This document shows, one piece after another, positions 16,967-31,229 of a DNA stretch of 32,000 bases. Below the pieces are notes generated by a model that ran no database searches, had not been told where the DNA came from, and saw only the letters and a list, made by a program, of their open reading frames with translations. Position 1 is the stretch's first letter. Every line of letters begins with the position of its first letter. Made by a program: the position numbers and the translations under genes. The stretch comes from Geotalea uraniireducens Rf4 (GTDB lineage Bacteria > Desulfobacterota > Desulfuromonadia > Geobacterales > Geobacteraceae): the NCBI RefSeq assembly GCF_000016745.1, contig NC_009483.1, positions 3,270,001-3,302,000 on the forward strand. The letters are read 5' to 3'.

Positions 16967-18424
16967 TTATTCAAATGGGAAGCTGGAAATAGCGGTTATT
17001 TCTATTCTTTGCTCATTCCCGGTGCGAAGGTCGGCAGCAGAAACCTGGAGAATGCCGTCGACGTTAATAGTGAATGTCACCTCTATCTTCGGATCCCCCT
17101 TCGGTTCAGGAGGGATGTCCGCAAGCTCAAAAATGCCGAGACTCATATTATCACCGGCAGTCTCTTTCTCTCCCTGAAGGACGTGGATACTGACCGACGT
17201 CTGGTTATCGGCAGCGGTTGTAAATATCCTGTTTCTTGAGACGGGAACTGTGGTATTTCTGTCGACGATCCTGGTAAATGTCCCTCCTTGGGTCTCAATC
17301 CCCAGGGAGAGCGGCGTGACGTCCAGCAAAACGACGTCGCTGAACTCACCGGCAATGATCCCTCCCTGTATCGCAGCGCCAATGGCTACCACCTCGTCAG
17401 GGTTAATGCCGTCATGGCAAATCTTCGAATCGCCGAACAAATTCTTTGCAAGTTCCAGCACCGCGGGCATCCGGGTCGAACCACCAACGAGAATAACCCT
17501 GTCGATATCCTCGAACCTGAGCCTGGCATCGGAAAGCGCCTGCAGGGTGGGCCCTACCAGCTTTCGGAGGAGAGAGTCGGTTAATTCCTCGAAATCTTCC
17601 CGCGAAAGGCGTATAGGCAATATACTCCCATCCCTGGCATCTCCCCCCGTCAGGGCGTTAAGGGGAATGGTTATCTCAGCAACCATTTCACGAGACAGCT
17701 TTTTCTTAGCGAGTTCCGCCGTCTCTCTCAGGAACGATAAGGCCGCTTTATCTCTCAAAGGATCGATTCCGGTCTCCAGATGTATGATTCCGGCCAGATG
17801 CTTGACGATCCTTTGATCCCAGTCATCCCCGCCCAGATGGGTATCACCGTTGACCGCCATGACCTCGAATATCCCTTGGCCAAGTTCCAGGACGGAAACA
17901 TCGAATGTACCGCCACCCAAATCCCAGACGAGTACCGTATGGATCTCCTCCTTGTCCAGCCCATAGGCTAAAGCTGCGGCGGTCGGCTCGTTGATTATCC
18001 TTACCACATCCAGGCCGGCCACGATCCCGGCTTCCTTTGTGGCTTCGCGCTGTTCGTTGTTGAAATAGGCGGGGACCGTGATCACAACCTTCTCTATCCT
18101 TTCCCCCAGATACGCTTCCACATCTCCGACAACTTTGCGAAGGATCATCCCCGATATCCCTGCCGGTGTGTAAACATTTCCCCCCGCATGAAACCTTTGC
18201 AATGAGCCCATATACCTCTTGACCGAGACGATGGTCCCCTCGGGATTGCCGATCGCCTGGTGCAAAGCACCCTTTCCCGCCAGCATCCCGTCATCCGTGA
18301 AGGCCACCACCGAAGGGGTCAGATTTTCACCGTCCCCATTGGGAATAACCACAGGGCGTCCATTATCGAGAATGGCAACAACCGTATTGGTGGTCCCCAG
18401 ATCGATACCGATTATCCTGGACAT
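16967..18424 (-). CDS. Hsp70/DnaK-family chaperone lacking the C-terminal helical lid (485 aa); last gene of the gvp operon
   Basis: [35 protein letters not shown] and the interdomain linker [16 protein letters not shown] are present. The SBD-beta region runs to [29 protein letters not shown], and the protein ends ~12 aa later. The ATG at 18424 has GGAGG 4 nt upstream and overlaps the upstream gvpJ/M gene by 13 nt. Confidence 0.9.
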
Positions 18425-18651
18425 GGTTCCTCCGTAGCCCGAATTTCCTTGTCCCACTCCTCCATGACGCCATATTTGGTCATCGTTTCCATTCCGGCCA
18501 CGGCTGCCCTCAGGTTGACGCCGACCAAGGGGATGCCCGCAATGGAGATAACCAGGTCCGCATCCACTACGACCCCCTTGTCGAGGACCCTCTCCAGCAC
18601 ATCAACCAGCGTAATATTTCCTTTGCTTGCATGTTCCATATTCACCGTCAC
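18412..18651 (-). CDS. gvpJ/M: GvpA/J/M-family gas vesicle protein (minor structural paralog)
   Basis: The core TLVDVLERVLDKGVVVDADLVISIAGIPLVGVNLRAAVAGMETMTKYG matches the GvpA-family fold signature. The GTG start overlaps the upstream stop (GTGA). Confidence 0.85.
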   Translation of the reverse strand: MTVNMEHASKGNITLVDVLERVLDKGVVVDADLVISIAGIPLVGVNLRAAVAGMETMTKYGVMEEWDKEIRATEEPCPG

Positions 18652-19397
18652 ATGTCGACAAAGCTGTACGGCGGCCAGGGGCCGGTAGGGCGTACTGCGA
18701 TACCTTCCCTGAGGTTGATGATCTCCAGTTCCGCTGTCATCTCATCACGCCTTTCCCCGGGGACCAGGACCGACAGGTTCATGATCATCCGTACGCCGTT
18801 ATCTGCCGCCTTCACCTCTTCAATGATTATCCGTTCCGCCAGCTCCTCGATCCTCTGGTAGATATTCTCGAAATACCTTTCCTTCTCCCTTGCCATCTCG
18901 CGCTTTAACGCCTTTTCCAGGAGCTGGCCATGCATGTAAGCCGCTCCTGTCCCACCCTCCGTCTTCGCCTTGAGTTCCCTGAGGGCCGGCACACTATCCA
19001 CAAGCCTTCCTGCAACAAGATCCTCGTCCCAGAATACCTGGACACCGTATTCTTCCCTGCCCCTCAACCGGCCGATACTTTTTCGCAGTTCCCCGTGGTT
19101 TCCCCCCAGCCATCCATTGAGATCATCCGCCCCCCCCTTGATGACGGTATGGAATCTTACCGGGAGGATTGTTCCGAACCGCCTCCATGCCGTTTCAACC
19201 ACCTTCTGGTGGGAGACGACCCAGCCGATCATACTTTCTCTCTCCCAACAATCGGGCGGGTCTCCCTGGTAATTATGGACAATCGCAGACAGGCCTTCAA
19301 AATGAACAGTATAGACCTCGCTCCCATCTATCCCGATCCTTCCGAGCGAAATTTCCTCGTCCCCCTCCGCCACGCAATAGATATATCTACCTTCCAT
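18648..19397 (-). CDS. gvpF/L: GvpF/GvpL-family gas vesicle assembly protein
   Basis: The N-terminus is YIYCVAEGD...VYTVHFEGLSAIV, and the C-terminus is ...NLSVLVPGERRDEMTAEL...VRPTGPWPPYSFV, typical of GvpL/F. The start is set at the ATG at 19397 (GGAG 7 nt upstream), overlapping the end of gvpK. Confidence 0.85.
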   Translation of the reverse strand: MEGRYIYCVAEGDEEISLGRIGIDGSEVYTVHFEGLSAIVHNYQGDPPDCWERESMIGWVVSHQKVVETAWRRFGTILPVRFHTVIKGGADDLNGWLGGNHGELRKSIGRLRGREEYGVQVFWDEDLVAGRLVDSVPALRELKAKTEGGTGAAYMHGQLLEKALKREMAREKERYFENIYQRIEELAERIIIEEVKAADNGVRMIMNLSVLVPGERRDEMTAELEIINLREGIAVRPTGPWPPYSFVDM

Positions 19398-19677
19398 GCA
19401 AGTCTCCGCCAAGCACCCCTTCCACCAGGTTGTCCAGACTATCCCTCACAGACCTGACCGCCTCGGTAACACCGTTATCCTCTTTTATCTGTTCCACGAC
19501 CCTGTCAAACTCCATGAGGGACTTTCCCAGCCTTTCCACCTCCTCCGCGTTCAGGCTTCCGTTTTCCATCCGCCTTACGGCCTGGGTCTTGAGAAGATCC
19601 CTGATTATCTCCACCAGGGCAAGGACGAGCCCCAGAACCCCCTGCTTGAGATTGTCCTGCTCGATGTCGATATTCAT
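19387..19677 (-). CDS. gvpK: Gas vesicle protein GvpK
   Basis: GVLGLVLALVEIIRDLLKTQAVRRMENGSLNAEEVERLGKSLMEF is the characteristic GvpK core. Confidence 0.85.
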   Translation of the reverse strand: MNIDIEQDNLKQGVLGLVLALVEIIRDLLKTQAVRRMENGSLNAEEVERLGKSLMEFDRVVEQIKEDNGVTEAVRSVRDSLDNLVEGVLGGDLHGR

Positions 19678-19692
19678 GGGGATATTTTACTC

Positions 19693-20058
19693 CTAGAGAC
19701 TATAGTCGGTTGTATGGGCTGCAATCTTCGCCCTGGCGCTCTCCCAACCGCACCAGGGACAACCTGCGGCGATCAGTTCATCCACAGAAACCCTCTTTCC
19801 GCATTCGGGGCAGGTTTCCTTGGTCGTGATCCCCTCTTTCCAGGCAGGAGCCTCAAGATTGATCCCTGAAGGAAACGCCAGACCATACCTGGCCGCTACC
19901 TCAAAAGAGGCAATGCTCGCCCTGATCTTGATGCTGAGGAGTTCAGTCCCGACAATGGATATGGCAATGTCCGCATTGATGACTATTCCCTTGTCCAGGA
20001 TCCTGTCGAGCACATCCAGCAAGGAAGCGCTGTTGTTTATTGTCCCTTCTATGGCCAT
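19693..20058 (-). CDS. gvpJ: GvpA/J-family gas vesicle protein with a C-terminal CxxC-x13-CxxC zinc-ribbon extension
   Basis: The GvpA-family core is SLLDVLDRILDKGIVINADIAISIVGTELLSIKIRASIASFEVAARYG. A ~50-aa tail follows, containing CPECGKRVSVDELIAAGCPWC. The AAGGAG RBS lies 6 nt upstream. Confidence 0.85.
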   Translation of the reverse strand: MAIEGTINNSASLLDVLDRILDKGIVINADIAISIVGTELLSIKIRASIASFEVAARYGLAFPSGINLEAPAWKEGITTKETCPECGKRVSVDELIAAGCPWCGWESARAKIAAHTTDYSL

Positions 20059-20068
20059 CCGTTTCTCC

Positions 20069-20374
20069 TTAGTCCCTTAGAAAAATTATTTGCATGTTTT
20101 TTGCCAGCGTTGTCCGGTTTGGTTTGTGCATCAAGGTTGTTAAGCCCCATTAGGGGCGTTCGAATGTAGCCGGGGGATTCATCCCCCGGATGAGATGCTA
20201 TATTTCCCCACGTCACGTACGTGACGTGATGATATTTCGCCTGGATGACCGGGGAATGAATTCCCCGGCTACCAGTATTCTGTCCCTACGGGACGTAAGC
20301 AAAAACCAAACCGGACAACGCTGGTTTTTTGCGAAGAATTTTTCGTGAAGGGACTTATCCCGTTCATCGGGGTT
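20069..20374. repeat. Copy A of a 78-bp intergenic module, split into 35-bp and 43-bp halves by a MITE insertion
   Basis: 20069-20103 plus 20332-20374 are 100% identical to 25247-25324, by direct base-by-base comparison. Confidence 0.9.
20104..20324. mobile_element. MITE-like non-autonomous element (221 bp) with 22-bp perfect terminal inverted repeats and a 7-bp target-site duplication
   Basis: The TIR is CCAGCGTTGTCCGGTTTGGTTT at 20104-20125, with its reverse complement at 20303-20324. The flanking TTTTTTG is duplicated (20097-20103 and 20325-20331). An empty-site paralog at 25270-25285 carries a single TTTTTTG. The element has no ORF. Its interior is a chain of hairpins, including the perfect 20-bp palindrome CACGTCACGTACGTGACGTG. 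Confidence 0.8.
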
Positions 20375-20403: not shown

Positions 20404-22362
20404 TTACGCACCCGTCAGTTGACCAAGGGCTTCCACCCCCTTGACCGGACTCAGAAACAGCGGCACAACAGCAACGTCGTAGTCATTCCCCCACTTTGCC
20501 GTCACCTGCCGCAGATACTTTTCCTGCTCTCCCTTGCAGCAGCGGCATCCGGCAGGAGGGGTCACCATGTTGACGATTATATGCCTTGACGGGATACCCA
20601 ATCTCCTGATGCCGGAAAGGAGGCGTTCCGTTTCAAGGATGGCAAGGGATTCCGGAATGGTAACGGCAACAAATTCAGTTTGCAGGGAGTCGGTAAGGGC
20701 CTTTTTCACATTCTTTACATCCCTGAGCAGATTCATGATCCCTTCGGCGGCACAACCAAGCCGGACGATCTCCTTGTATTTAAGCAGCAGCCTGAGGATC
20801 GCCTTCAACCATTCAAGGACGATCTCTGGGGTTTCGAGGAAACGGAGCGCATGACCGGTGGGCGCAGTATCGATAACGAACAGGTCGTACGCCCCTCTCA
20901 GTTCGAGCATCTTCTTCAGGCCCATGATCTCGTCCAGTCCCGGGGGGGAAAGCTCGATAAGCCCCAGCATCACCTCTTTGTCAAAGGCGATATCTCCCCC
21001 TCCGGCGACGAAGGGGGAGAAAACCGCCTCGATGTCCGCGCAGTATTCTTTCTGGAATACGTTAAGCATGCGGGAGGCGTCCATCTCCAGTGCGAAGAGA
21101 TGTCCCCCCGCCGATGAGTCGATGATCGGCGTGACGGCATTTCCTATCGTGCGGTCGAAACAGTCCGACAACGAATGTGCGGGATCCGTGGAAAGTATCA
21201 GGATCTTCCTCTCCGGATTTTCCCTTGCCATATAAAGCGCTGTCGATGCGGCCATAGTGGTCTTGCCGACTCCTCCCTTGCCGCCGAAGAGAAGAAACTC
21301 CAGACCGGGTTTGCGCGCAAGCTCCGCTATGGCATTGCGAAAAGCCGCAAGGGTATAGTCGGGGGGAACGGGTGGTGAGGCAACATCTTTCCCGGCCGGA
21401 GCCGCGATTTTTACCGGCGCAAAGAGAAGCTCCGCAAATTTGCACAGGTTTTCAAATCCGTTGATTTCATGGTGGATAAGAGGGGCGAACACGAGATTGC
21501 AGTCGGCGAACCTCTCTCCGATTTCCGCCAGATACCCTTCGATCCCTTTCCTTCGCGAAGAACAGAACGGACAGTCCCCTCCCTCGACGACGCGATTGAC
21601 GATCAGGCTCCGCACCGCTATCCTATACTCCTTCAGGGATGCCAGCAGCCTGCCGGTTTCTTCGATCGCCGCCGGTTCGGGGATAGTCACCGGGACAAAT
21701 TCGGTCATCATGCCGTCCTTGAGAAGGGAATCCACTCGGTCCAGGTCGTCCGTCATCGTCTTCAGGAACTCATCCGTCGCGTCCCTCACGTACCGTCCCT
21801 TGAATCGTCTCAGGAGTAAACGGTGCTTCTCCTGCATCAGGTCAAAAACGGCAATCCATTTCTTCATCTGGGCCGGGAGGGCCAAAAGCCTCAGCGTGTG
21901 GCCGGTCGGCGCGGTATCGAGGACAATCAGGTCGAATTCGCCGGACTTCAAAAGCCTGACCACTTCAATGACCGCCATCACCTCGTCAAGCCCCGGCAGC
22001 GACAGGGAAAAGAACCCTTCGACGTCTTCCCGGTCAAAATAGGTCCCCCTTTCCGCCAGCTTTTTCATCACCCCTTCGTATTTTTTTCTGAAGTCCTGGA
22101 AGAGCTTGCGAGCGTCCATCTCCAGCAGCCAGAGATTATCAAGCTCATCGACCCGTGTGATATCCCCCCCGACGCTCCTCTCGAAACAGTCGCCCAGAGA
22201 ATGAGCCGGATCGAGGGAAATGAGAACCACCTTTTTCCCGGGCCTGAGCCGCGCCAGGTATATGGACGCAGCAGCTGCAGATGTGGTTTTTCCGCACCCC
22301 CCCTTTCCGCCGAACATTATCAGCCGGAGAGCCGGGTTATCAAGGAGCTTGGAGTTAGCCAC
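20404..22362 (-). CDS. Tandem-duplicated ArsA/Get3-family P-loop ATPase (pseudo-dimer) with a CxxC motif in each half
   Basis: It has two deviant Walker A loops (FGGKGGCGKTT; FGGKGGVGKTT), two DPAHSL motifs and two DTAPTGHTLR/DTAPTGHALR switch II motifs. CPFC follows IVNRV in half 1, and CRCC follows IVNMV in half 2. GTG start 6 nt after the gvpO stop. Confidence 0.9.
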   Translation of the reverse strand: MANSKLLDNPALRLIMFGGKGGCGKTTSAAAASIYLARLRPGKKVVLISLDPAHSLGDCFERSVGGDITRVDELDNLWLLEMDARKLFQDFRKKYEGVMKKLAERGTYFDREDVEGFFSLSLPGLDEVMAVIEVVRLLKSGEFDLIVLDTAPTGHTLRLLALPAQMKKWIAVFDLMQEKHRLLLRRFKGRYVRDATDEFLKTMTDDLDRVDSLLKDGMMTEFVPVTIPEPAAIEETGRLLASLKEYRIAVRSLIVNRVVEGGDCPFCSSRRKGIEGYLAEIGERFADCNLVFAPLIHHEINGFENLCKFAELLFAPVKIAAPAGKDVASPPVPPDYTLAAFRNAIAELARKPGLEFLLFGGKGGVGKTTMAASTALYMARENPERKILILSTDPAHSLSDCFDRTIGNAVTPIIDSSAGGHLFALEMDASRMLNVFQKEYCADIEAVFSPFVAGGGDIAFDKEVMLGLIELSPPGLDEIMGLKKMLELRGAYDLFVIDTAPTGHALRFLETPEIVLEWLKAILRLLLKYKEIVRLGCAAEGIMNLLRDVKNVKKALTDSLQTEFVAVTIPESLAILETERLLSGIRRLGIPSRHIIVNMVTPPAGCRCCKGEQEKYLRQVTAKWGNDYDVAVVPLFLSPVKGVEALGQLTGA

Positions 22363-22368: not shown

Positions 22369-22671
22369 CTACTCTTCCACTAACGTTTCGGCGCGCCTGC
22401 GCATCCCTTTGCGGCTGAATTCGAGCAGATTGCCGTGATTATCCAGTACGGCCTCATAGGTTGCAAGGATATCCATGTTATCAGGTATGACGCGCTTTTC
22501 CACCAGCTCGACCGACACTCGCCATCCCATCTCATCCTTCGCAGTCTTCAGCGTGGATGAAAGCTCCAGGCCGGTCAGAACGCTGAGCTCACTTCTTGCC
22601 TTCTGGATGATATTCCCGATAGACATCGCCATTTTTGCCGCCTCCGGCTGTTCAGACGAATCGACTTTCAT
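22369..22671 (-). CDS. gvpO: Gas vesicle protein GvpO
   Basis: The core LTGLELSSTLKTAKDEMGWRVSVELVEKRVIPDNMDILATYEAVLDNHGNLLEFSRKGMRRR matches my recollection of the GvpO family. The ATGA overlaps the gvpG stop. Confidence 0.8.
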   Translation of the reverse strand: MKVDSSEQPEAAKMAMSIGNIIQKARSELSVLTGLELSSTLKTAKDEMGWRVSVELVEKRVIPDNMDILATYEAVLDNHGNLLEFSRKGMRRRAETLVEE

Positions 22672-22907
22672 AATTCCTCTTTACGTTCCATGATCTCTTC
22701 CAGCCTGGCCATCAGTTCCGCTTCCTTGCTCAGATACTCTTCTTCGGTCATCTCATCGAGCTCAAAGCGCATCTGTAGTTCGAGAAGTTCCTCATGTATC
22801 CTGGAGTCGTCGGTCATCTCCGACTCAGCCATGTCCTTGAGTTTATCGGCTACCCAGACCAGCCCTTTTATGGGTGAAAGGAGAATGTCATCCAACAAAA
22901 AGATCAT
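22668..22907 (-). CDS. gvpG: Gas vesicle protein GvpG
   Basis: MIFLLDDILLSPIKGLVWVADKLKDMAESE...EEEYLSKEAELMARLEEI is the typical GvpG N-terminal hydrophobic helix plus acidic helix. The ATGA overlaps the upstream gene. Confidence 0.85.
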   Translation of the reverse strand: MIFLLDDILLSPIKGLVWVADKLKDMAESEMTDDSRIHEELLELQMRFELDEMTEEEYLSKEAELMARLEEIMERKEEL

Positions 22908-23881
22908 TCGACGACCCTTACCATTATGGCATCCTTCCCGAAAGCGAGGTTGCTGCAGCCCGTCAGGATTTTGTATGCCCGGCTGAACTTCTCGAAAATC
23001 ATCTGCGCATCGGGGTCGCCGGAATTATTGTCCGGGTGATACTTCCGGAGCTGCTTCCTATATGCCTTCCTGACCTCGTCCTTATCATCTCCAGGGACCA
23101 CGCCGATGATATTCATCGCTTCCTCAATCTCCCCGGCCCCTATTCTGCATATTTCCAGGGTATTGAAGCTGTGAGGAGGAAGCGGGCCTATGACCCGGAA
23201 GTTTATTCTGCCGCAATACCTCTTATCCAGCCCTTCTATCTGCTCATCCAGCGCGTTTTTCTTCTCACTCTCCACAAGAAAAGCCACGTTCAGCAGCATC
23301 CTGTCATCGAAATGCTCGCGGATCCTCTGCTCAAGGTGATGCTCCTTAAGAGCGAACAAAATTTCGTTCCCGACCCTCCCATTCTCCTCCTCCAGGGCCA
23401 CCCTGACCATTTTTCCCAGCTCTATGGCCGCCTCCCTAAGCTCTTCCCGGGATGCAGTTGCAATCTCTTCCTTGAACCGTCGAATCTCGTCTCTCTCCCC
23501 CAGTTCCCTCAATGTCGAATCCAGATCATTCCACAAGGCTATCAAATCCACCTCGACCTTGCCCGCCATGCTGTCGATCGCGTTTTTGAAGCAAGGGTAT
23601 CCCGATTCCAGTATTTCGAGAAGCTCCCCGTCATCCATGGCCGATGTCCCGAATTTTATCGGGACAGCCGTACACTCCTTCATAATCCCCTCGATCAGCG
23701 ACTGGTGGTTTGCCAGGTGCCGGACAAGGATATCCTTGGGAAGGGATGCGTAGTTTATGGGTGATGATTCCTTTACCACCAGGGCGATGTCGCGGTACGG
23801 CACGAGATAGGCGCAATCCCCCGAAACCGCCGCATCCCCGCCATCACGGCTTACAACGCAATAAAGATGCTTTGCCATCAT
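22904..23881 (-). CDS. GvpF/GvpL-family protein fused to a C-terminal DnaJ (J) domain
   Basis: Residues 1-245 are GvpL/F-like (HLYCVVS..., LLNVAFLVESEKKNALDEQI..., FRVIGPLPPHSFN). Residues ~250-305 are EIEEAMNIIGVVPGDDKDEVRKAYRKQLRKYHPDNNSGDPDAQMIFEKFSRAYKIL, with the diagnostic HPD tripeptide. Confidence 0.85.
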   Translation of the reverse strand: MMAKHLYCVVSRDGGDAAVSGDCAYLVPYRDIALVVKESSPINYASLPKDILVRHLANHQSLIEGIMKECTAVPIKFGTSAMDDGELLEILESGYPCFKNAIDSMAGKVEVDLIALWNDLDSTLRELGERDEIRRFKEEIATASREELREAAIELGKMVRVALEEENGRVGNEILFALKEHHLEQRIREHFDDRMLLNVAFLVESEKKNALDEQIEGLDKRYCGRINFRVIGPLPPHSFNTLEICRIGAGEIEEAMNIIGVVPGDDKDEVRKAYRKQLRKYHPDNNSGDPDAQMIFEKFSRAYKILTGCSNLAFGKDAIMVRVVE

Positions 23882-25342: not shown

Positions 25343-25660
25343 TCAATAATCCATAACCATCGTCTTGAATTTTTCCTTTGCCCCCTTCGGAGCATTTTCT
25401 TTGGAATTCCTTTTCCCGTCTTCCTTCAATACGGTTTTTCCAATATTTATTATTTCTTTTCCGAGATCTTTCAGGTCATCCTCTATACTCTTCTTTCTCT
25501 TGAGCAGGGCGTGCAACTCCAATTCCAGTTTGGTCCTTTTCCGCGTCAATACATAGAGGTCAAGGTAGCGGTTCACCGAAGCCTTCGGCACGGAACGGAT
25601 TTTCGTTCTTGGGGCGGTTCTTGGAGCGGTTCTTATAATTGATCCACTTGTAATGCTCAC
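25343..25660 (-). CDS. Small basic coiled-coil protein in the gvpV position (tentative GvpV-like)
   Basis: GTG start with a GGAGGG RBS 7 nt upstream. It has an N-terminal RTAPRTAPRT repeat and then RYLDLYVLTRKRTKLELELHALLKRKKSIEDDLKDL. It sits directly after gvpN, as gvpV does in Serratia/Anabaena-type clusters. Homology is not verifiable here. Confidence 0.5.
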   Translation of the reverse strand: MSITSGSIIRTAPRTAPRTKIRSVPKASVNRYLDLYVLTRKRTKLELELHALLKRKKSIEDDLKDLGKEIINIGKTVLKEDGKRNSKENAPKGAKEKFKTMVMDY

Positions 25661-25686: not shown

Positions 25687-26709
25687 TTACAGCATGCTGA
25701 CTGCCTTGTCACCCACCGCTATTCTCTGGCCGACCTTAAGGGACGGTTTCGTATCCGTATTCATTTCCCCGGCTTCAGGGTTACTCCCACAGTGCCTGTC
25801 AACCAGTTCAGCTATGAACTCCTTAACCTTTTTTATATTGGCATCGCTTCCCACCCTGCTCGTTTCCGAGGCAAGTACATCAGTGCAGATACTCCTGAAT
25901 ATTTTGTTCCCCGCTTCGACCGCGGCCTTTCTTACCTTCGCAGTCTTTGCAATCATGATGCATCCCCTCACAGTGGGTGCAAACTCGTATTTCCCGGAAT
26001 CCCTGAGACTCCTGACGATATTCACAATTTTTTCCGAATCGTGCAGGGGCAATCCCGACTTTGCCGAGGTTATAGCCATTTCCGTCTCCTTGTCAGGATA
26101 GCTGATGTCTATCGTGACCATCCTGTCCCGCAGAGCGTCCTGGCTCCTGTAGACTCCCGCATACTCCTCGGGATTGCTTGTAAAGATCGCGACAAAATCC
26201 GGGTGCACCTTGAGATACCCTTCTCCCCCCCTTGCAGTGGGCATGCCCATCATCTTTTCCTGCAGGACAGACAGGAGAACGTTATTGGCTTCGGGCCTGG
26301 ACCTGGTAAATTCGTCATAGATCAGAGTGAACCCTTTTTTGCAGGCCAGCGTCAGCCGGCTGTCTATCCAGGAACTGTTCATGCTCTCTTCAGTCTTCAG
26401 GACTGAATGAATGAAGTTGTCCACGACCTTCTTTTTCCTGTAGCCATGCTGCCCCCCCACCAGGTCGGATGTGGAATGCTCCTCGTCACCATGCATGATA
26501 ACGAGCGGCCTGCCGAGCTTACTGGCAACATGCATGGCAATTGTGGTCTTGCCTGTACCTGAGGTCCCCCTGAAGTGGACGGGGAAACCAGCAGCAATAT
26601 AGGCAAGAGCCCGCTCCGTCACATCCCGGACATAGTCCGTTTCCACAAAGTTCGGCAAAGAACGGGGCTCTAAAACGGTCGCCAGTACTTCAGCATTTTC
26701 TTCCTGCAT
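25687..26709 (-). CDS. gvpN: Gas vesicle AAA+ ATPase GvpN (CbbQ/NirQ/NorQ/GvpN family)
   Basis: Walker A FRGTSGTGKTTIAMHVA, Walker B LIYDEFTRS, and an arginine-finger region. The size is ~340 aa. The AAGGAGAG RBS lies 6 nt upstream. Confidence 0.9.
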   Translation of the reverse strand: MQEENAEVLATVLEPRSLPNFVETDYVRDVTERALAYIAAGFPVHFRGTSGTGKTTIAMHVASKLGRPLVIMHGDEEHSTSDLVGGQHGYRKKKVVDNFIHSVLKTEESMNSSWIDSRLTLACKKGFTLIYDEFTRSRPEANNVLLSVLQEKMMGMPTARGGEGYLKVHPDFVAIFTSNPEEYAGVYRSQDALRDRMVTIDISYPDKETEMAITSAKSGLPLHDSEKIVNIVRSLRDSGKYEFAPTVRGCIMIAKTAKVRKAAVEAGNKIFRSICTDVLASETSRVGSDANIKKVKEFIAELVDRHCGSNPEAGEMNTDTKPSLKVGQRIAVGDKAVSML

Positions 26710-27094: not shown

Positions 27095-27430
27095 TTATTG
27101 TTTCGCACTTTTCCTGGCAGCGCCGCCTCTTTTCGCCTGCATAGTGGAGCCCAAGTGCCCCCATGCAGCAATTGCGTCGTCGTGCTCCTTTTTGAAACCC
27201 TTGAGAAGATTGCTCGTCTCTTTCTTCATGGAGTACCTTGCCTTGGAAAGATCCTGCCTGAGCTGTGACGCCATCTCACCCCGCTCCTTGTGAAGATCGT
27301 CAAGCATCCTGTGGACATCGTCAGTCATTTCGTGGACATCCTTTTTGATGGATGCAAGAACAGCCATCCTTTCATCAAAAGAAGCGGTAATATCCTGGGC
27401 TAGTGCCTTGAATCCGTCTACTCTTGCCAT
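27095..27430 (-). CDS. Hypothetical charged alpha-helical protein (111 aa) inside the gvp operon
   Basis: AAGGAG RBS 8 nt upstream. The sequence is rich in heptad-like charged helices (DERMAVLASIKKDVHEMTDDVHRMLDDLHKERGEMASQLRQDL). No family is recognised. Confidence 0.6.
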   Translation of the reverse strand: MARVDGFKALAQDITASFDERMAVLASIKKDVHEMTDDVHRMLDDLHKERGEMASQLRQDLSKARYSMKKETSNLLKGFKKEHDDAIAAWGHLGSTMQAKRGGAARKSAKQ

Positions 27431-27457: not shown

Positions 27458-28105
27458 TCAACCCTGCCATGCCGTCTTGTCATAGAAACTGAACACCCCT
27501 TCCCACTGAGCGGCCACTTCCCGGCGTATCCTGTCAAACTCATCCAGTATCCGGTCTATCTCGTCACTGGATTCCCTGTCACGGTTACCGAGCGTCTTAA
27601 CCACGGATTTCAAGTCCTTTATCCTTACCTCCTCCCCTTTGGACAAAAGATTTTTCAATGCCGCTATCAACTCTTCCTGCTCCAGCTGGAACTTCATCAG
27701 TGACTTTGCCACCTCTTTCTCTCGTTCCCTGAGCCGCAAAAGGATATCCCTCTTCATTATTTCAAAATCGGCAGGGTTGCAATTCCCGGTGAGGACCTTC
27801 TTCAAGATGAGGATCATCTCCCCTTCTTCCTGCCATATAGTTTCCAGCTGCTGCCGGGTTTTTGTCTCTCTTTCTCTCCTCTTGGCCAGGACGGTTTCCA
27901 TCAGGGCATCAAAGTCCTTTTTTCTCATCCCCCCATGCCTCGAGAGATTTTCCTTCAAACGTCTGCTCATCTCATCCTGTTCCCTGCAATAGTTATTCAC
28001 ACGTTTCATTGCTTCAACAACGAGAGTATTGACAAGCTTTAACCGCTTTTCGTACGATTTTATGATCTCCAACCCTATAGTTCTCAAAGGTTCCTGAAAC
28101 TCCAT
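27458..28105 (-). CDS. Charged helical repeat protein in the gvpC position (candidate GvpC functional analogue)
   Basis: The ATG at 28105 has GGAG 6 nt upstream. There are two clear ~47-aa internal repeats: KKDFDALMETVLAKRRERETKTRQQLETIWQEEGEMILILKKVLT and PADFEIMKRDILLRLREREKEVAKSLMKFQLEQEELIAALKNLLS. It lies directly downstream of gvpA. Confidence 0.6.
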   Translation of the reverse strand: MEFQEPLRTIGLEIIKSYEKRLKLVNTLVVEAMKRVNNYCREQDEMSRRLKENLSRHGGMRKKDFDALMETVLAKRRERETKTRQQLETIWQEEGEMILILKKVLTGNCNPADFEIMKRDILLRLREREKEVAKSLMKFQLEQEELIAALKNLLSKGEEVRIKDLKSVVKTLGNRDRESSDEIDRILDEFDRIRREVAAQWEGVFSFYDKTAWQG

Positions 28106-28195
28106 TTCCAACTCCGCTCATAATCCTTGTACGGTTTCGCGTCTACTGTTTGTGTGAATGGAGATGGAGACATGCTTGAGTAACTTGTTTATAAT

Positions 28196-28253: not shown

Positions 28254-28472
28254 TTACGCATGCATTGCCGTCGCAGTGGTTGTAAGGCCTACTGCCTCGG
28301 CATACTTAAGGAAAGTATCCACAGAGGCAACAACGACCCTCGCTTCGATAGCGAGAAGCTCGATCCCCACTAAGGAAACCCTTGCCCAAGCATCGATACA
28401 TACGCCCTTGTCCAGGATCCTGTCGATTACCTCGACGAGACTGGAAGATGCATTTGTTTTCTCAACTGCCAT
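28254..28472 (-). CDS. gvpA: Major gas vesicle structural protein GvpA
   Basis: [63 protein letters not shown] is nearly identical in pattern to canonical GvpA. The start is set at the ATG at 28472, with an AGGGGG RBS, not the GTG at 28481. Confidence 0.95.
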
Positions 28473-28617: not shown

Positions 28618-28633
28618 TACAAGAGGTATGCCA
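28618..28633 (-). promoter_or_regulatory. Candidate sigma54 (-24/-12) promoter for gvpA: TGGCAT-N5-TTGTA
   Basis: The minus strand reads TGGCATACCTCTTGTA. The -24 GG and the spacing are correct, but the -12 element is GT instead of GC. It lies ~136 nt upstream of the gvpA ATG and downstream of an NtrC-type activator gene. Confidence 0.3.
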
Positions 28634-28726: not shown

Positions 28727-30187
28727 TTATTCCTGAAAGGGGAAGGAAGCTCCTCCCCTTTCGGGGAAATGCTTCCCGCCTATTGGATTCCTGTTTCTGG
28801 CAGACCTGATCTGGCCTATCTTGGTACGGAGCGTCTTCGGGTCAATGTTCAGGAACCGGGAGACCCTGACCATATTAAGGTTTGATCTCTCCATTACATT
28901 CCTTATCACGGTCTCTTCGAGCCGGTCGCTCCACTTTTTGATCAACGCCTTCAGATCAAGAGAGCCCTCCAGCAGCCCCTTCTCTATCTCTTCCTCGACC
29001 TTTATCCCCGGGAAATGGCAATCCTCAGCATCTTCCGGCAGGGAAAAACTGCCCTTCCTGATGTATTCCGGCAGGTGTTTCGCCAAGATATCTCCGTCCG
29101 CAAGGATAACAGCTGACTTCACGACGTTTTCGAGTTCCCTCACGTTTCCGGGCCATGGATAGGCATTCAGGAGCAGCAAGGCTTCCTCGGAGATATTGGC
29201 CGCATTACCGAATTCTTCGGAATAGGCGGCCAGGAAATGACGGATCAGGACGTCCACATCCTTTACCCTATCCCTGAGGGAAGGTATCGCTATCGTCATC
29301 TGGCTGAACCTGTAAAAGAGGTCCTTCCTGAACACTCCGTTGTTAATAATCTCCGTAAGGGGGATGTTACTTGCCGCGACTATCCTGACATCCACTTTAA
29401 TTGCCTTGGTGCCGCCGACCCTCTCGATCTGCTTTTCTTCGACAGCCCTCAAGAGCTTGGCCTGATTGGAAGACGAGAGGTTTTCAACTTCGTCTATGAA
29501 CAACGTTCCTCCATGGGCCCTTTCGAACTTTCCGATCTTCCTTTCGGTGGCCCCTGTAAACGCCCCCTTCTCGTGTCCGAACAGCTCGCTTTCAATGAGC
29601 GTCTCCGAGAGGGCGGCGCAGTCCAGTGGAACAAACGGCCCGCTGCGTCTCTTGCTTTTCTGGTGGATGGCCCTGGCAAACAATTCCTTCCCGGTTCCGC
29701 TCTCCCCCTGGAGAAGGATGGTAATGTCCGAAAGGGCGAACTTATCCACCAATCGAAAGACTTTTTTCATCTGGGGGCTTGAACCCACAATGCCGCAATG
29801 GTCGTTGCCGGCAATGTTTCTTGCACTTATCACCCCGTTTATAAATCTTTTGAAGTCGTAATGGTTGAAAGGCTTCTGGACGAAGTCCATTGCACCCATC
29901 TTGATGGAGCGGACCGCGGTTTCGATACTCCCGTAGGCCGTCATCATCACGATAGGGGTTCCCCTGACGGCGTCCTTCATATCCCTGAGCATGTCCATGC
30001 CGTCTATATCCGGAAGGTTTATATCGAGCAGAATGATGTCGGGAAGACTCTCTTCCAGCACCCTCTTCATGGCCTCCTTGCCGGTTGTTACCTGCTCTAT
30101 TTCATAATTGTCACCGGCGAGAAGCCTCGACACTATCTTTCCCACATCCTTCTCATCATCAACCAGAAGAATCCTATGCATTTTCAT
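28727..30187 (-). CDS. Sigma54-dependent NtrC-family response regulator (REC, AAA+, Fis-type HTH); GvrA-like position
   Basis: The REC domain has ILLVDDE...DIILLDINLPDIDG. The AAA+ domain has Walker A GESGTGKELFARAIH, the GAFTGA loop, and LFIDEV. The C-terminal HTH is NMVRVSRFLNIDPKTLRTKI. The start is placed at the ATG at 30187 (MKMHRILLV), overlapping the end of the kinase gene. Confidence 0.9.
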   Translation of the reverse strand: MKMHRILLVDDEKDVGKIVSRLLAGDNYEIEQVTTGKEAMKRVLEESLPDIILLDINLPDIDGMDMLRDMKDAVRGTPIVMMTAYGSIETAVRSIKMGAMDFVQKPFNHYDFKRFINGVISARNIAGNDHCGIVGSSPQMKKVFRLVDKFALSDITILLQGESGTGKELFARAIHQKSKRRSGPFVPLDCAALSETLIESELFGHEKGAFTGATERKIGKFERAHGGTLFIDEVENLSSSNQAKLLRAVEEKQIERVGGTKAIKVDVRIVAASNIPLTEIINNGVFRKDLFYRFSQMTIAIPSLRDRVKDVDVLIRHFLAAYSEEFGNAANISEEALLLLNAYPWPGNVRELENVVKSAVILADGDILAKHLPEYIRKGSFSLPEDAEDCHFPGIKVEEEIEKGLLEGSLDLKALIKKWSDRLEETVIRNVMERSNLNMVRVSRFLNIDPKTLRTKIGQIRSARNRNPIGGKHFPERGGASFPFQE

Positions 30188-31229
30188 CTTTTCTCCCATC
30201 GGCCGGAAGAAGAATAGAAACGGTTGTCCCTACGCCTTCCTTGCTGGTGACCGTAATCCTGCCGTTATGCTCTCTGACGATGTTCCTGACAATGAAGAGC
30301 CCAAGACCGTTCCCGTTGCACTTGGTAGTATGGAACGGTTTGAAAATCGTCTTCATATCCTTTTCGGATATCCCGATGCCGCTGTCCGTAACCTCCACAA
30401 GAACCGCGTCCTTTCCGTCGAGATCAACTCTCTTTGCCGCTACGGAAAACTTTCCTCCGTTGGGCATCGCCTCGATTGAGTTCTTGACCAGGTTCAGAAA
30501 TACCTGCTTCAAGCGATGGGGATTGCAGCATACTATCGGAAGATTATCCTCGATGGATGCCTCGATCACCACGCCGTGCCCCTCACATTCCTTCTCGACA
30601 AAGTGCAGGATCTGTGAAAGGCTGCTGCAGATATCGTGAAAAACGATCTGTTCTTTATTGGGCCTCGAAAACTCCGAAATGTCTTTCAACAACTCGTGCA
30701 TCCTGTCGATGTTTTCCATGACCACCTGGCTGTACATGGTCAAATCGCCGCCCATCCTTGTCAGGTGGTCGTTAAGGAATCGCATGGTGGATTTCATGAT
30801 CCCCAGCGGATTCCCGATTTCGTGGGTGATGCAGGTGGCCAACTGTCCCATGGCAAAGAGCTTTTCCGCCTGCAGAAACTTCTCCTCCAGCCACATCCTT
30901 TCCGACAGCTCTTCCATGAGGACGATGATCCCGTCCGGCGTAACGGATGTTGCGCTTTTCATCACGACCCTCAGGTCAATACCGTTGTTCAGGCGAAGCC
31001 TGCTTTCCCTTCTGCCGACCTCCCCCCCCAAAACATCTTCCATCATCCCCTTGAGAGTATCGTCCGGGACAATTTCGGAAAAGGGCCTGTTCAGAATTTC
31101 TTCGTCGATTGAAAAGAGATCCATGAAATCGCTGTTGGCCGCTTGAATGCGGAACTCACTCCCGAGGAGGAGGGCCGCCATGGGTATTGCCTCGAAAACA
31201 TGCGGGAACAGCAGGGATACTTCATTCAT
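30174..31229 (-). CDS. Cytoplasmic PAS-HisKA-HATPase sensor histidine kinase (GvrB-like position)
   Basis: It has an N-terminal PAS-like region, the H-box ATCITHEIGNPL, the N-box LNLVKNSIEAM, and G-boxes DSGIGI and GNGLGLFIVRNIV. GAGGTGA RBS. Confidence 0.85.
   Translation of the reverse strand: MNEVSLLFPHVFEAIPMAALLLGSEFRIQAANSDFMDLFSIDEEILNRPFSEIVPDDTLKGMMEDVLGGEVGRRESRLRLNNGIDLRVVMKSATSVTPDGIIVLMEELSERMWLEEKFLQAEKLFAMGQLATCITHEIGNPLGIMKSTMRFLNDHLTRMGGDLTMYSQVVMENIDRMHELLKDISEFSRPNKEQIVFHDICSSLSQILHFVEKECEGHGVVIEASIEDNLPIVCCNPHRLKQVFLNLVKNSIEAMPNGGKFSVAAKRVDLDGKDAVLVEVTDSGIGISEKDMKTIFKPFHTTKCNGNGLGLFIVRNIVREHNGRITVTSKEGVGTTVSILLPADGRKDENA

What the first reader, a model, noticed from the sequence alone, without database searches (positions are those of the whole stretch)
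16967..31229. Gas-vesicle island carrying its own proteostasis and targeting machinery
All the core gvp genes are present in one co-directional block with short or overlapping junctions. They are gvpA, N, three F/L paralogs, G, O, K and two J/M-type paralogs. Interleaved with them are four genes that, to my recollection, are absent (bar an Hsp20-type gvpH in Serratia) from the textbook gvp sets of Halobacterium, Anabaena, Bacillus megaterium and Serratia. These are an Hsp20, a J domain fused to a GvpF/L protein, a tandem Get3/ArsA-like ATPase, and a lidless Hsp70 as the terminal cistron. Several junctions are ATGA/GTGA overlaps, which argues for co-translation as one unit rather than chance adjacency. 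A dedicated Hsp70/J/sHsp/Get3 set suggests that the extremely hydrophobic, aggregation-prone GvpA-family subunits are held and delivered by ATP-driven chaperones. That would be an assembly mode not described for gas vesicles, as far as I know.
Basis: partly seen in the sequence, partly recalled or inferred. Interest (0 to 1): 0.9.

Follow-up and report, generated by a model that had tools for sequence, protein, structure and literature searches.

The report
Gas-vesicle operon with dedicated chaperones
A Geobacter-type gas-vesicle gene cluster carries its own Hsp70, a J domain fused to a GvpF/L protein, a small heat-shock protein, a Get3-like ATPase and a CDC48-like unfoldase; this chaperone set recurs in gas-vesicle clusters of many phyla, and only its ArsA/Hsp20 part has been described.

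Summary
On the minus strand, 16967-28472, lie gvpA, N, three F/L, G, O, K and two J/M paralogs. Interleaved are an Hsp20, a GvpF/L-J-domain fusion, a tandem Get3/ArsA ATPase and a terminal lidless Hsp70.

The linkage is not chance. All 80 best GvpF-J loci from genome collections (about 17 phylum-level groups) keep chaperone genes co-directional with gvp genes. Among 37 loci spanning the cluster, 35 have Hsp20, 29 CDC48, 18 ArsA and 18 Hsp70. Three of three short Hsp70 homologues, looked up independently, sit in gvp clusters. Cultured gas-vacuolate Chlorobium luteolum and Octadecabacter arcticus carry GvpF-J.

The novelty claim is overstated. ArsA and Hsp20 in gvp clusters were published in 2010. 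I found no paper on the J fusion, Hsp70 or CDC48.

Most likely GvpF-J recruits Hsp70 to GvpA-family subunits, and the sHsp, Get3-like and CDC48-like proteins prevent or reverse off-pathway aggregation. Recycling of collapsed vesicles is the main rival. No function was tested. Verdict: new variant of a known kind, interest 0.7.

The parts
31516..32000 (-). C-terminal 160 aa of a CDC48/VAT-like double-ring AAA+ ATPase (D2 Walker B onwards); the gene is cut by the window end
   Evidence: Translation. 157/160 residues match the 701-aa protein of L084, which has CDC48_N, CDC48_2 and 2x AAA domains. Its best PDB match is Thermoplasma VAT 5g4f, E 1e-225. It has aromatic pore loops KFYG and KYVG. The gene holds the same position in L001 and L084.
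30174..31229 (-). Sensor histidine kinase (PAS, HisKA, HATPase_c)
   Evidence: Pfam. Present in L084/L085 and absent in L001.
28727..30199 (-). NtrC-type sigma-54-dependent response regulator
   Evidence: Pfam Response_reg + Sigma54_activat + HTH_8. Conserved in L001, L084 and L087.
28618..28633 (-). Sigma-54-type promoter candidate TGGCATACCTCTTGTA, 146 nt upstream of the gvpA ATG
   Evidence: It is the only match to TGGCAY-N5-TTGYW in the window. The element is conserved as TGGCATGCCATTTGTA in the 68%-identical cluster L001, within an otherwise diverged spacer. Activity was not tested.
28254..28472 (-). gvpA, major shell protein (72 aa)
   Evidence: PF00741, E 4.7e-15. A 72-aa gene is called in L084.
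27458..28111 (-). Predicted helical 217-aa protein with no family, in the GvpC position
   Evidence: No Pfam hit above cut-off (two sub-threshold matches only) and no NCBIfam hit. Homologues sit in the same position in many related loci (label 'cc').
27095..27430 (-). 111-aa protein with no family, conserved in related clusters
   Evidence: label 'p111'.
25687..26709 (-). gvpN, MoxR-like AAA+ ATPase
   Evidence: TIGR02640, 351 bits against a cut-off of 267; AAA_5.
25343..25660 (-). 105-aa basic protein with no family, always just after gvpN
   Evidence: label 'p105'; also present in Chlorobium luteolum L089.
24468..25217 (-). GvpF/L paralog 1
   Evidence: PF06386, E 1e-67.
23889..24440 (-). 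Small heat-shock protein (alpha-crystallin domain, long N-terminal arm)
   Evidence: PF00011 E 4.6e-11 and PF17886 ArsA_HSP20. NF041800 'archaeal Hsp20', 152 bits against a cut-off of 140.
22904..23881 (-). GvpF/L paralog 2 fused to a C-terminal J domain (GvpF-J)
   Evidence: PF06386 (residues 5-239) plus PF00226 (residues 257-307). The HPD motif is near-invariant in 14 homologues. The AF2 model has pLDDT 89. It matches GvpF 6l5d/4qsg, and its J domain superposes on the DnaJ J domain bound to DnaK (5nro_B) at 1.1 A.
22668..22907 (-). gvpG (ATGA overlap with GvpF-J)
   Evidence: PF05120; junction -4.
22369..22671 (-). gvpO
   Evidence: PF05800; junction -4.
20404..22362 (-). Tandem (pseudo-dimeric) Get3/TRC40/ArsA-family ATPase, 652 aa
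   Evidence: TIGR00345, 441 bits against a cut-off of 135. The ArsA equivalog scores 209 against a cut-off of 650. Best PDB matches are Chlamydomonas ARSA1 5zme and archaeal/yeast Get3, ahead of E. coli ArsA. It has two P-loops, two DTAPTGH motifs and CPFC/CRCC at the Get3 Zn-site position.
20104..20324 (.). MITE-like insertion (26-nt terminal inverted repeats, 9-bp duplicated GTTTTTTGC) inside the ArsA>gvpJ spacer
   Evidence: The same junction is 0 nt in L001.
19693..20058 (-). GvpJ-like GvpA-family paralog with a C-terminal CxxC...CxxC zinc-ribbon-like tail
   Evidence: PF00741; NF046090 GvpJ is the best NCBIfam hit; sequence.
19387..19677 (-). gvpK
   Evidence: PF05121.
18648..19397 (-). 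GvpF/L paralog 3
   Evidence: PF06386, E 1e-61. A 249-aa gene is called in L084.
18412..18651 (-). GvpM-like GvpA-family paralog
   Evidence: NF046091 GvpM is the best hit, E 1e-26. A 79-aa gene is called in L084.
16967..18424 (-). Lidless Hsp70 (NBD + linker + beta-sandwich SBD, no alpha-helical lid or tail), terminal cistron
   Evidence: PF00012, E 6.5e-179. The DnaK model matches only positions 1-498 of 625. It is colinear with Geobacillus DnaK 2v7y and ends at about E. coli DnaK residue 505-510. Gln replaces Met/Leu at the position aligning with the IETMGG motif, which I recall as DnaK Met404 of the substrate arch. It overlaps gvpM by 13 nt.

Best explanation
This is a gas-vesicle (GV) biogenesis operon that carries a client-dedicated proteostasis module for the aggregation-prone GvpA-family shell proteins (GvpA, GvpJ, GvpM).

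Shown:
- The genes are present and have intact catalytic and signature motifs.
- They are linked to gvp genes across many phyla.

Inferred mechanism:
- The GvpF/L domain of GvpF-J binds shell subunits or the nascent shell, as GvpF/L proteins do in studied systems.
- Its HPD J domain then triggers ATP hydrolysis in an Hsp70 at that site. Here the Hsp70 is the cluster's own lidless protein with an altered substrate arch. In clusters without one it would be the housekeeping DnaK.
- The sHsp and the Zn-CxxC Get3-like pseudo-dimer act as holdases for the hydrophobic or amphipathic segments.
- The VAT-like double-ring AAA+ unfoldase, usually encoded directly upstream of GvpF-J, extracts or unfolds mis-assembled subunits.
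- The net effect is that subunits stay assembly-competent during sigma-54-driven GV production and off-pathway aggregates are reversed.
For: Domain identities and motifs:
- General assignments.
- J domain: near-invariant HPD and a J fold that superposes on the DnaK-bound DnaJ J domain.
- Hsp70: NBD and SBD-beta align along their full length with DnaK (about 65% identity by eye to Geobacillus DnaK); the lid is absent.
- Arch position: the residue aligning with the IETMGG motif (DnaK Met404 by my recollection) is Gln, Glu, Arg, Lys or Ser in 21 of 22 gvp-linked Hsp70s, against Met or Leu in 16 of 16 canonical DnaKs.
- Get3-type CxxC: kept in 38 of 38 tandem halves. Get3-type proteins are the best PDB matches.
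- VAT-like unfoldase: both Walker sites and aromatic pore loops are intact.

Linkage:
- All 80 best GvpF-J loci come from about 17 phylum-level groups.
- In the 37 loci that span gvpA, N and K: Hsp20 35, CDC48 29, Zn-finger DnaJ-like 22, ArsA 18, Hsp70 18, and CDC48 or Hsp70 34.
- Every Hsp70 (32/32), CDC48 (56/56) and ArsA (43/43) gene lies on the gvp strand.
- CDC48 sits immediately upstream of GvpF-J in 35 of 50 loci.
- Hsp70 sits upstream of GvpF-J in Anaerolineae but is the terminal gene elsewhere, so the order differs while the linkage holds.
- Reverse look-ups of short Hsp70s (P0142, P0065, P0080): 3 of 3 lie in gvp clusters.

Unit boundaries: two Geobacter genomes share the block from CDC48 to Hsp70 but have different flanks.

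Bona fide gas-vacuolate isolates carry GvpF-J:
- Chlorobium luteolum DSM 273, which also has Hsp20, ArsA and CDC48.
- Octadecabacter arcticus 238, which also has Hsp20.

Field context: GV expression causes proteotoxic stress in E. coli, and the assembly factors are thought to chaperone GvpA (PMC12848028).
Against: - No experiment or transcript data exist. Binding of GvpF-J to GvpA or to the Hsp70 is inferred from homology only.
- Textbook clusters (Halobacterium, B. megaterium, Serratia) make GVs without such genes. This rests on established knowledge and was not tested here. Plasmid-borne actinomycete GvpF/L proteins lack the J domain. The module is therefore accessory, not essential.
- The component list resembles a disaggregase at least as much as a delivery system.
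- Long spacers and a MITE-like insertion leave operon continuity open.
- No nucleotide-exchange factor is encoded in the cluster.
- Geobacter is not known to form gas vesicles (my own knowledge).
- The 80 loci were chosen as the best matches to a J-containing query, so the share of all gvp clusters that carry the module is unknown.
Confidence: 0.6

Rival explanations
1. Disassembly and recycling machine. The sHsp + Hsp70/J + double-ring AAA+ set is a GvpF-targeted disaggregase. It would work like DnaK/DnaJ-ClpB-IbpAB, or like auxilin-Hsc70 uncoating. It would remove collapsed or unwanted gas vesicles and recover or clear their very stable GvpA sheets. Its main role would not be to help assembly.
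For: - The component list matches the bacterial bi-chaperone disaggregase, with a VAT-like unfoldase in place of ClpB.
- CDC48 is the gene most tightly adjacent to GvpF-J.
- In Chloroflexi- and Coprothermobacterota-type loci, Hsp70, Hsp20 and CDC48 are contiguous.
[quoted passage not shown] No recogniser of collapsed GVs has been found (bioRxiv 10.64898/2026.05.31.729101).
- A lidless SBD could plausibly engage segments of assembled lattices (inference).
Against: - The genes sit among assembly genes and downstream of the gvpA promoter, so they are probably made during assembly.
- No protease gene is linked.
- The Get3-like holdase fits handling of new subunits better.
- The two roles are not mutually exclusive.
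Confidence: 0.2
2. Generic stress buffer. The chaperones are not client-specific. They are co-expressed only to protect the cell from the proteotoxic load of mass-producing hydrophobic Gvp proteins.
For: - GV expression is proteotoxic in E. coli (PMC12848028).
- The Hsp70 is about 60% identical to ordinary DnaKs.
- The Hsp20 matches a general Hsp20 equivalog model.
Against: - The J domain is covalently fused to a Gvp protein in 80 of 80 loci.
- gvp-linked Hsp70s share a changed residue at the substrate-arch position and shortened C-termini.
- The closest database relatives of the Hsp70 are themselves gvp-linked.
These features point to specialisation.
Confidence: 0.1
3. Targeting role for the Get3-like ATPase. 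As Get3 does with tail-anchored proteins, it would escort a hydrophobic helix (GvpG, GvpJ/M or GvpA) to a defined site such as the membrane or the GV nucleation point. This is the sense in which Castillo & Saier proposed that it 'energises a biogenic step'.
For: - Get3-type signatures and best matches.
- Published co-occurrence of ArsA homologues with gvp genes, and predicted single hydrophobic segments in GvpG and GvpM (PMC2963123).
Against: - ArsA is present in only about half of the spanned loci (18 of 37).
- The CxxC motif is lost in 5 of 19 single-domain versions, including that of C. luteolum.
- No receptor homologue is evident.
- The hydrophobic client groove was not examined.
Confidence: 0.1
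4. Chance adjacency or hitch-hiking of housekeeping chaperone genes next to a gvp cluster.
For: None beyond the fact that dnaK-like and hsp20 genes are common in genomes.
Against: - The linkage is conserved on the same strand across many phyla, with shuffled order.
- The reverse look-ups gave 3 of 3.
- The flanks differ between Geobacter genomes while the block is kept.
- A random 20-kb stretch should hold an Hsp70 gene in roughly 1-2% of cases (estimate from typical copy numbers, my own knowledge), against 18 of 37 observed.
Confidence: 0.02

Closest known systems
ArsA/Hsp20-containing gvp clusters (Castillo & Saier 2010, PMC2963123)
   Same: Two-domain ArsA homologue plus Hsp20 embedded among gvpN/F/L/G/J/K/M/O, with no ars genes. 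The paper proposed an ATP-driven role in GV biogenesis. It covers Pelodictyon (Chlorobium) luteolum, whose cluster I show also holds CDC48 and GvpF-J, and a Geobacter species.
   Different: In the passages I retrieved by term search, that paper does not mention the J domain on GvpF/L, any Hsp70, the CDC48-like unfoldase or the DnaJ-type zinc-finger proteins. The window's cluster has all of Hsp20, ArsA, CDC48, J and Hsp70.
Bacterial bi-chaperone disaggregase (DnaK-DnaJ-GrpE with ClpB and IbpA/B)
   Same: The same functional classes are encoded together: an sHsp, an Hsp70 with a J-domain partner, and a double-ring AAA+ threading motor with aromatic pore loops.
   Different: The AAA+ is CDC48/VAT-type, not ClpB, so it has no M-domain for Hsp70 docking. 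The J protein is a client-specific fusion. The Hsp70 lacks its lid. No GrpE is encoded. A Get3-like ATPase is added.
Specialised J-protein/Hsp70 pairs (HscB-HscA for Fe-S clusters; auxilin-Hsc70 for clathrin uncoating; Mycoplasma TopJ for the terminal organelle)
   Same: A J domain with no G/F region, zinc-finger or C-terminal client domains is attached to a client-specific module. This brings Hsp70 to one structure or client. TopJ models were among the NCBIfam J-domain hits.
   Different: The targeting module is a GvpF/L fold. The dedicated Hsp70 is truncated after the beta-sandwich. No biochemical data exist.
Get3/TRC40 and tandem plastid-type ARSA1
   Same: P-loop, DTAPTGH switch II and Zn-binding CxxC motifs. 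It is a tandem pseudo-dimer like Chlamydomonas ARSA1 (5zme), its best PDB match.
   Different: The genomic context is gas-vesicle genes, with no known receptor. The client and the hydrophobic groove were not examined.
Archaeal heat-shock pair Hsp20 + CDC48/VAT (Phr/HSR1 regulons; recalled from my own knowledge, not checked here)
   Same: An sHsp gene sits next to a VAT-type unfoldase gene. The window's Hsp20 scores above the cut-off of the 'archaeal Hsp20' equivalog model, and the AAA+ is closest to Thermoplasma VAT.
   Different: The pair is bacterial, embedded in gvp clusters, and coupled to GvpF-J rather than to a heat-shock regulator.
Serratia sp. ATCC 39006 gvp cluster with the NtrC-family regulator GvrA (my own knowledge)
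   Same: A sigma-54-dependent response regulator and a kinase are encoded with the gvp genes. There is a sigma-54-type promoter before gvpA.
   Different: As far as I recall, Serratia lacks the Hsp70, J fusion, Get3-like and CDC48-like genes.

Membership tests
Gas-vesicle (gvp) gene cluster | GvpA shell protein plus the core accessory set (GvpN, F/L, G, J/M, K, O), clustered and co-directional | tested here: met
   Pfam and NCBIfam hits for every member; all lie on the minus strand.
Gas-vesicle (gvp) gene cluster | The organism actually forms gas vesicles | not testable with these tools
   The source looks like an uncultured Geobacter relative. Related clusters occur in the gas-vacuolate isolates C. 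luteolum DSM 273 and O. arcticus 238.
Hsp70/DnaK | Actin-like NBD, conserved interdomain linker ([11 protein letters not shown]) and beta-sandwich SBD | tested here: met
   PF00012, E 6.5e-179. Full-length alignment with Geobacillus DnaK residues 1-474.
Hsp70/DnaK | Alpha-helical lid (SBD-alpha) and C-terminal tail | tested here: not met
   The protein ends at DnaK model position ~498 of 625 and at about E. coli DnaK residue 505-510. No residues follow the SBD-beta, against 122-168 in canonical DnaKs. The truncation is conserved in orthologues.
J-domain protein | J-domain helical fold with the HPD loop | tested here: met
   PF00226, 51 bits. HPD is near-invariant in the alignment. The predicted fold lies 1.1 A from the J domain of 5nro.
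Class A/B DnaJ (Hsp40) | G/F-rich region, CxxCxGxG zinc-finger domain and C-terminal client-binding domains | tested here: not met
   Only the J domain matches DnaJ models, at residues 257-308. The rest is a GvpF fold. Separate CxxCxGxG proteins occur in related loci but not in the window.
Get3/TRC40 | Deviant P-loop, switch II DTAPTGH, and a CxxC zinc site at the dimer interface | tested here: met
   TIGR00345, 441 bits. Motif positions and CPFC/CRCC are aligned with the Get3 CxxC.
Get3/TRC40 | Hydrophobic client groove that binds tail-anchor helices, and a receptor-dependent cycle | not tested
   No structure model was made of this protein, and no receptor homologue was looked for.
ArsA arsenite-pump ATPase | Equivalog-level similarity and an ars operon context (arsB/acr3, arsD, arsR) | tested here: not met
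   TIGR04291 scores 209 bits against a cut-off of 650. E. coli ArsA is a much weaker PDB match than Get3. The neighbours are gvp genes only. The metalloid-binding cysteines were not checked.
Small heat-shock protein | Alpha-crystallin domain | tested here: met
   PF00011 and PF17886; NF041800 above its cut-off. The C-terminal IXI motif and the oligomeric state were not examined.
CDC48/VAT/p97 AAA+ | Double-psi-barrel N domain plus D1 and D2 rings with Walker A/B motifs and pore loops | tested here: met
   Shown on the full-length orthologue from L084. The window itself holds only the last 160 residues.
DnaK-ClpB bi-chaperone disaggregase | A ClpB/Hsp104 motor with an M-domain that docks Hsp70 | tested here: not met
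   The AAA+ is VAT-type. The resemblance is functional, not membership.

The most novel reading that the evidence does not exclude
GvpF-J, the lid-less or lid-shortened Hsp70 with its altered substrate arch, and the VAT-like unfoldase together form an ATP-driven machine that works directly on the gas-vesicle shell. GvpF would dock on the GvpA lattice. The J domain would fire Hsp70 on exposed shell segments, as auxilin does on clathrin coats. The AAA+ ring would pull subunits out. This would give cells enzymatic, regulated disassembly, remodelling and subunit recycling of gas vesicles, a process currently thought to depend on pressure collapse and dilution. The Get3-like and sHsp proteins would hold the released subunits for re-use.
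Probability: 0.2. Interest if true: 0.9.

Novelty: new variant of a known kind. Interest (0 to 1): 0.7.

Why it matters
How the very hydrophobic GvpA is kept soluble, delivered into a growing shell and removed after collapse is an open problem. It is also a practical bottleneck for acoustic reporter genes. Heterologous GV expression is proteotoxic and many clusters fail to assemble (PMC12848028). No factor that recognises collapsed vesicles has been found (bioRxiv 2026).

Nature appears to have bolted a complete, client-targeted chaperone set onto gvp clusters in many phyla. The set comprises a J domain fused to GvpF/L, a specialised Hsp70, an sHsp, a Get3-like ATPase and a VAT-like unfoldase.

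This gives direct handles:
- defined genes to add to, or delete from, expression constructs;
- a predicted GvpF-client-Hsp70 contact to test;
- cultured hosts (C. luteolum, O. arcticus) in which to test it.

It would also add a natural lidless Hsp70 and a bacterial CDC48 with a known client to chaperone biology.

Tried and rejected
- Consensus sigma-70 promoter and terminator scans of 16000-32000 gave counts no higher than shuffles. They say nothing about operon boundaries.
- Rfam found nothing in the window.
- Pfam and NCBIfam gave no family above cut-off for the 217-, 111- and 105-aa proteins. I did not pursue them. By position they may be GvpC- and GvpV-like.
- A neighbour-joining tree of gvp-linked and canonical Hsp70s did not give one clean gvp clade. 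Canonical DnaKs nest among the gvp-linked groups under midpoint rooting. I therefore do not claim a single origin. It only suggests that lid loss arose in at least two groups (the Geobacter/P0142 clade and Chloroflexi L049/L069).
- The representative-library search with the GvpF-J profile gave 86,647 hits at E<=1e-3. That number is dominated by ordinary J proteins and is not a family size. The informative result is that nearly all of the best 150 representatives (50% identity clusters) match through the J region.
- I could not measure what fraction of all gvp clusters carries the module.
- I considered that the short Hsp70 was a truncated pseudogene. I rejected this because orthologues of 480-487 aa are conserved at 66-93% identity.
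- Ten literature searches found no description of Hsp70, DnaK, DnaJ/J-domain, CDC48 or Get3 genes within gvp clusters. Subscription-only papers are not covered.

Full report
**1. What is in the window**

All relevant genes lie on the minus strand. Pfam and NCBIfam assignments give this order, 5' to 3':
- the C-terminus of a CDC48/VAT-like AAA+ (31516-32000, cut by the window end)
- a PAS histidine kinase (30174-31229)
- an NtrC-type sigma-54 response regulator (28727-30199)
- gvpA (28254-28472)
- a predicted helical 217-aa protein and a 111-aa protein, both without a family
- gvpN (25687-26709)
- a 105-aa protein without a family
- GvpF/L-1 (24468-25217)
- Hsp20 (23889-24440)
- GvpF/L-2 with a C-terminal J domain (22904-23881)
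- gvpG
- gvpO
- a 652-aa tandem Get3/ArsA ATPase (20404-22362)
- a GvpJ-like paralog with a zinc-ribbon-like tail (19693-20058)
- gvpK
- GvpF/L-3
- a GvpM-like paralog (18412-18651)
- an Hsp70 (16967-18424)

The next genes are convergent. In the 97%-identical contigs L084/L085 they encode an AMIN-domain protein and a multihaem cytochrome. The corrections are the Hsp70 start (ATG at 18424, 485 aa), the existence of five spacers of 125-385 bp besides the tight junctions, and the missed CDC48-like gene.

**2. The unit and its control**

A second Geobacter MAG (L001) is 68% identical in GvpF-J. It has the same block from CDC48 to Hsp70 but different flanking genes, and it lacks the kinase. The near-identical contigs L084/L085 show the complete 701-aa CDC48-like gene upstream of the kinase. 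The conserved unit therefore runs from CDC48 to Hsp70.

The only match in the window to a sigma-54 promoter pattern sits at 28618-28633, 146 nt upstream of gvpA. It is conserved in L001 inside an otherwise diverged spacer. This fits the adjacent sigma-54 activator. Generic promoter and terminator scans were uninformative. Whether one transcript reaches the Hsp70 is not known.

**3. The chaperone-type proteins**

*GvpF-J.*
- The AlphaFold model has pLDDT 89.
- It is a GvpF fold (Anabaena 6l5d, Microcystis 4qsg; TM 0.75-0.80). A J domain follows and superposes at 1.1 A on the DnaJ J domain bound to DnaK.
- The HPD motif is near-invariant in 14 homologues down to 30% identity.
- There is no G/F region, zinc finger or DnaJ C-terminal domain.

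*Hsp70.*
- It is about 60% identical to canonical DnaKs.
- It is colinear with Geobacillus DnaK.
- It stops right after the beta-sandwich, at about E. coli DnaK residue 505-510.
- At the position aligning with the IETMGG motif, which I recall as DnaK Met404 of the substrate arch, it has Gln.

*Get3-like ATPase.*
- It scores far above the TRC40/GET3/ArsA subfamily cut-off and far below the ArsA equivalog cut-off.
- Its best solved relatives are the tandem Chlamydomonas ARSA1 and archaeal and yeast Get3, ahead of E. coli ArsA.
- Both halves keep the P-loop, DTAPTGH and the CxxC that forms the Get3 zinc site.

*Hsp20.* It has an alpha-crystallin domain and matches the 'archaeal Hsp20' equivalog above its cut-off.

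*CDC48-like protein.* It is closest to Thermoplasma VAT (E 1e-225, full length). It has intact Walker A/B motifs in both rings and aromatic pore loops KFYG and KYVG.

**4. Is the linkage more than chance?**

*Forward test.* A scan of one genome per species with a GvpF-J alignment found at least 580 relatives. The best 80 loci come from about 17 phylum-level groups by record title. They include Desulfobacterota, Nitrospirae, NC10, Acidobacteria, Planctomycetes, several Chloroflexi classes, Omnitrophota, Chlamydiota, Elusimicrobia, Armatimonadetes, Bacteroidota, Chlorobi, Alphaproteobacteria, Lentisphaerae and Actinobacteria.

I annotated these loci with the window's proteins, a J-domain HMM and a CxxCxGxG pattern:
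- Every locus has the J fusion.
- Among the 37 loci that span gvpA, gvpN and gvpK, 35 have Hsp20, 29 a full-length CDC48-like gene, 22 DnaJ-type zinc-finger proteins, 18 ArsA, 18 Hsp70, and 34 CDC48 or Hsp70.
- All Hsp70 (32/32), CDC48 (56/56) and ArsA (43/43) genes are on the gvp strand.
- Nine of the 80 genome-scan loci have the full set (seven of them among the 37 spanning loci).
- CDC48 lies immediately upstream of GvpF-J in 35 of 50 loci. Hsp20-(ArsA)-CDC48-GvpF-J is the commonest arrangement.
- In Anaerolineae the Hsp70 sits directly upstream of GvpF-J instead of at the end. The order changes but the linkage stays.

*Reverse test.* I chose three short Hsp70 homologues only by similarity and contig length. 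These were P0142 (487 aa), P0065 (480 aa) and P0080 (581 aa, annotated as the 'DnaK' of a Coprothermobacterota MAG). All three lie in gvp clusters with GvpF-J.

*Shared Hsp70 features.* gvp-linked Hsp70s carry a polar or charged residue at the arch position in 21 of 22 cases, against Met or Leu in 16 of 16 canonical DnaKs. They also have shortened C-termini. After the beta-sandwich they have 0-33 residues in the Geobacter/P0142 clade and two Chloroflexi, and 88-120 in the others, against 122-168 in canonical DnaKs.

*Family size.* A library-wide profile search shows that nearly all of the best 150 representatives at 50% identity match through the J region.

*Limits.* The 80 loci were selected as the best matches to a J-containing query. 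The share of all gvp clusters with this module is therefore unknown. Plasmid-borne actinomycete and Spartinivicinus GvpF/L proteins lack the J domain.

**5. Cultured organisms**

- The GvpF-J cluster containing ABB23576.1 belongs to Chlorobium (Pelodictyon) luteolum DSM 273. Its locus reads gvpA x3 ... gvpN ... Hsp20-like, 314-aa ArsA, 718-aa CDC48, GvpF-J, then more GvpF/G/M/K, with no Hsp70.
- Plasmid pOA238_160 of Octadecabacter arcticus 238 has an Hsp20 and a 360-aa GvpF/L with a Pfam DnaJ hit (28.0 bits, cut-off 27.8).
- Both species are known gas-vacuolate bacteria. Such clusters are therefore real gas-vesicle clusters.

**6. What was already known**

Castillo & Saier (2010, PMC2963123) reported two-domain ArsA homologues and Hsp20 in gvp clusters. 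Their organisms were Polaribacter irgensii, Pelodictyon luteolum, Geobacter uraniireducens, Anabaena/Nostoc and an acidobacterium. They proposed that the ATPase energises a biogenic step and that Hsp20 acts as a chaperone. That part of the finding is not new.

Ten full-text searches found no paper describing an Hsp70/DnaK, a J domain, a CDC48-like ATPase or 'Get3' within gvp clusters. The Octadecabacter genome paper lists only GvpN as a 'chaperone' plus one unknown protein. Some database pipelines already label such proteins 'GvpL/GvpF/DnaJ domain'. Subscription literature was not searchable.

**7. Mechanism**

*Shown:* gene content, motif integrity and conserved linkage.

*Inferred:*
- GvpF-J is a client-specific J protein. 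Its GvpF/L domain binds shell subunits or the nascent shell, and its J domain fires Hsp70 there.
- The sHsp and the Get3-like pseudo-dimer hold hydrophobic segments.
- The VAT-like motor extracts mis-assembled subunits.

I favour assembly-time quality control because the genes are interleaved with assembly genes downstream of the gvpA promoter (confidence 0.6 for a Gvp-dedicated proteostasis role).

The main rival is a recycling or disassembly machine for collapsed vesicles (0.2). [quoted passage not shown] Generic stress buffering (0.1) is disfavoured by the covalent J fusion and the specialised Hsp70. Chance adjacency is effectively excluded.

Lid loss and the arch change may let the Hsp70 engage segments of large or assembled clients. 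This is speculation.

**8. Verdict**

Novelty is 'new variant of a known kind': a known ArsA/Hsp20-bearing class of gvp clusters, now seen to include a J-fused GvpF, specialised Hsp70s and a VAT-like unfoldase across many phyla. Interest is 0.7.

Noticed in passing
window 20068-20374 and 25246-25324: A 79-nt intergenic element upstream of gvpF/L-1 recurs upstream of gvpJ. There it is split by a 220-bp insert (20104-20324) with 26-nt terminal inverted repeats (96% complementary) and a duplicated 9-bp GTTTTTTGC. This looks like a MITE inside the operon. The same junction is 0 nt in the Geobacter MAG L001 and 307 nt in L084.
   Followed up: partly
window 26830-26961: The 385-bp spacer between the 111-aa gene and gvpN holds another 23-nt inverted-repeat pair (87% complementary, 86 nt apart). 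It may be a second small mobile or palindromic element. The spacer is shorter in L084 (260 nt) and L001 (171 nt).
   Followed up: no
window 31516-32000; L084 483-2588: A CDC48/VAT-like AAA+ gene is cut by the window end. In related loci it is the gene most often directly upstream of GvpF-J (35 of 50 loci). This suggests a functional pairing that nobody seems to have described.
   Followed up: partly
window 19693-20058: The GvpJ-like paralog carries a C-terminal CPEC...CPWC zinc-ribbon-like tail, conserved in L001. Chloroflexi- and Coprothermobacterota-type loci instead have ~370-aa GvpA-family proteins with long C-terminal extensions.
   Followed up: no
L002, L003, L019, L020, L029 and many other related loci: Small proteins made of 4-6 CxxCxGxG repeats (the DnaJ zinc-finger domain without a J domain) are common in J-bearing gvp clusters (22 of 37 spanned loci). 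They are absent from the window.
   Followed up: partly
window 16967-18424 and Hsp70s of L013-L071: gvp-linked Hsp70s have Gln, Glu, Arg, Lys or Ser at the position aligning with the IETMGG motif (recalled as E. coli DnaK Met404 of the substrate arch), against Met or Leu in canonical DnaKs. This could be a sequence signature for recognising this subfamily, including proteins annotated simply as 'DnaK'.
   Followed up: partly
L013, L023, L024, L031, L042 (Desulfobacterota loci): These clusters carry an internal histidine-kinase/response-regulator pair immediately before Hsp70. A ~315-aa Hsp20-like ORF and ArsA follow. This hints at separate regulation of the chaperone sub-block.
   Followed up: no
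window 27458-28111, 27095-27430, 25343-25660: Three proteins with no Pfam or NCBIfam family above cut-off are conserved in position (after gvpA, and after gvpN) across distant phyla, including C. luteolum. By position they may be analogues of GvpC and GvpV.
   Followed up: no
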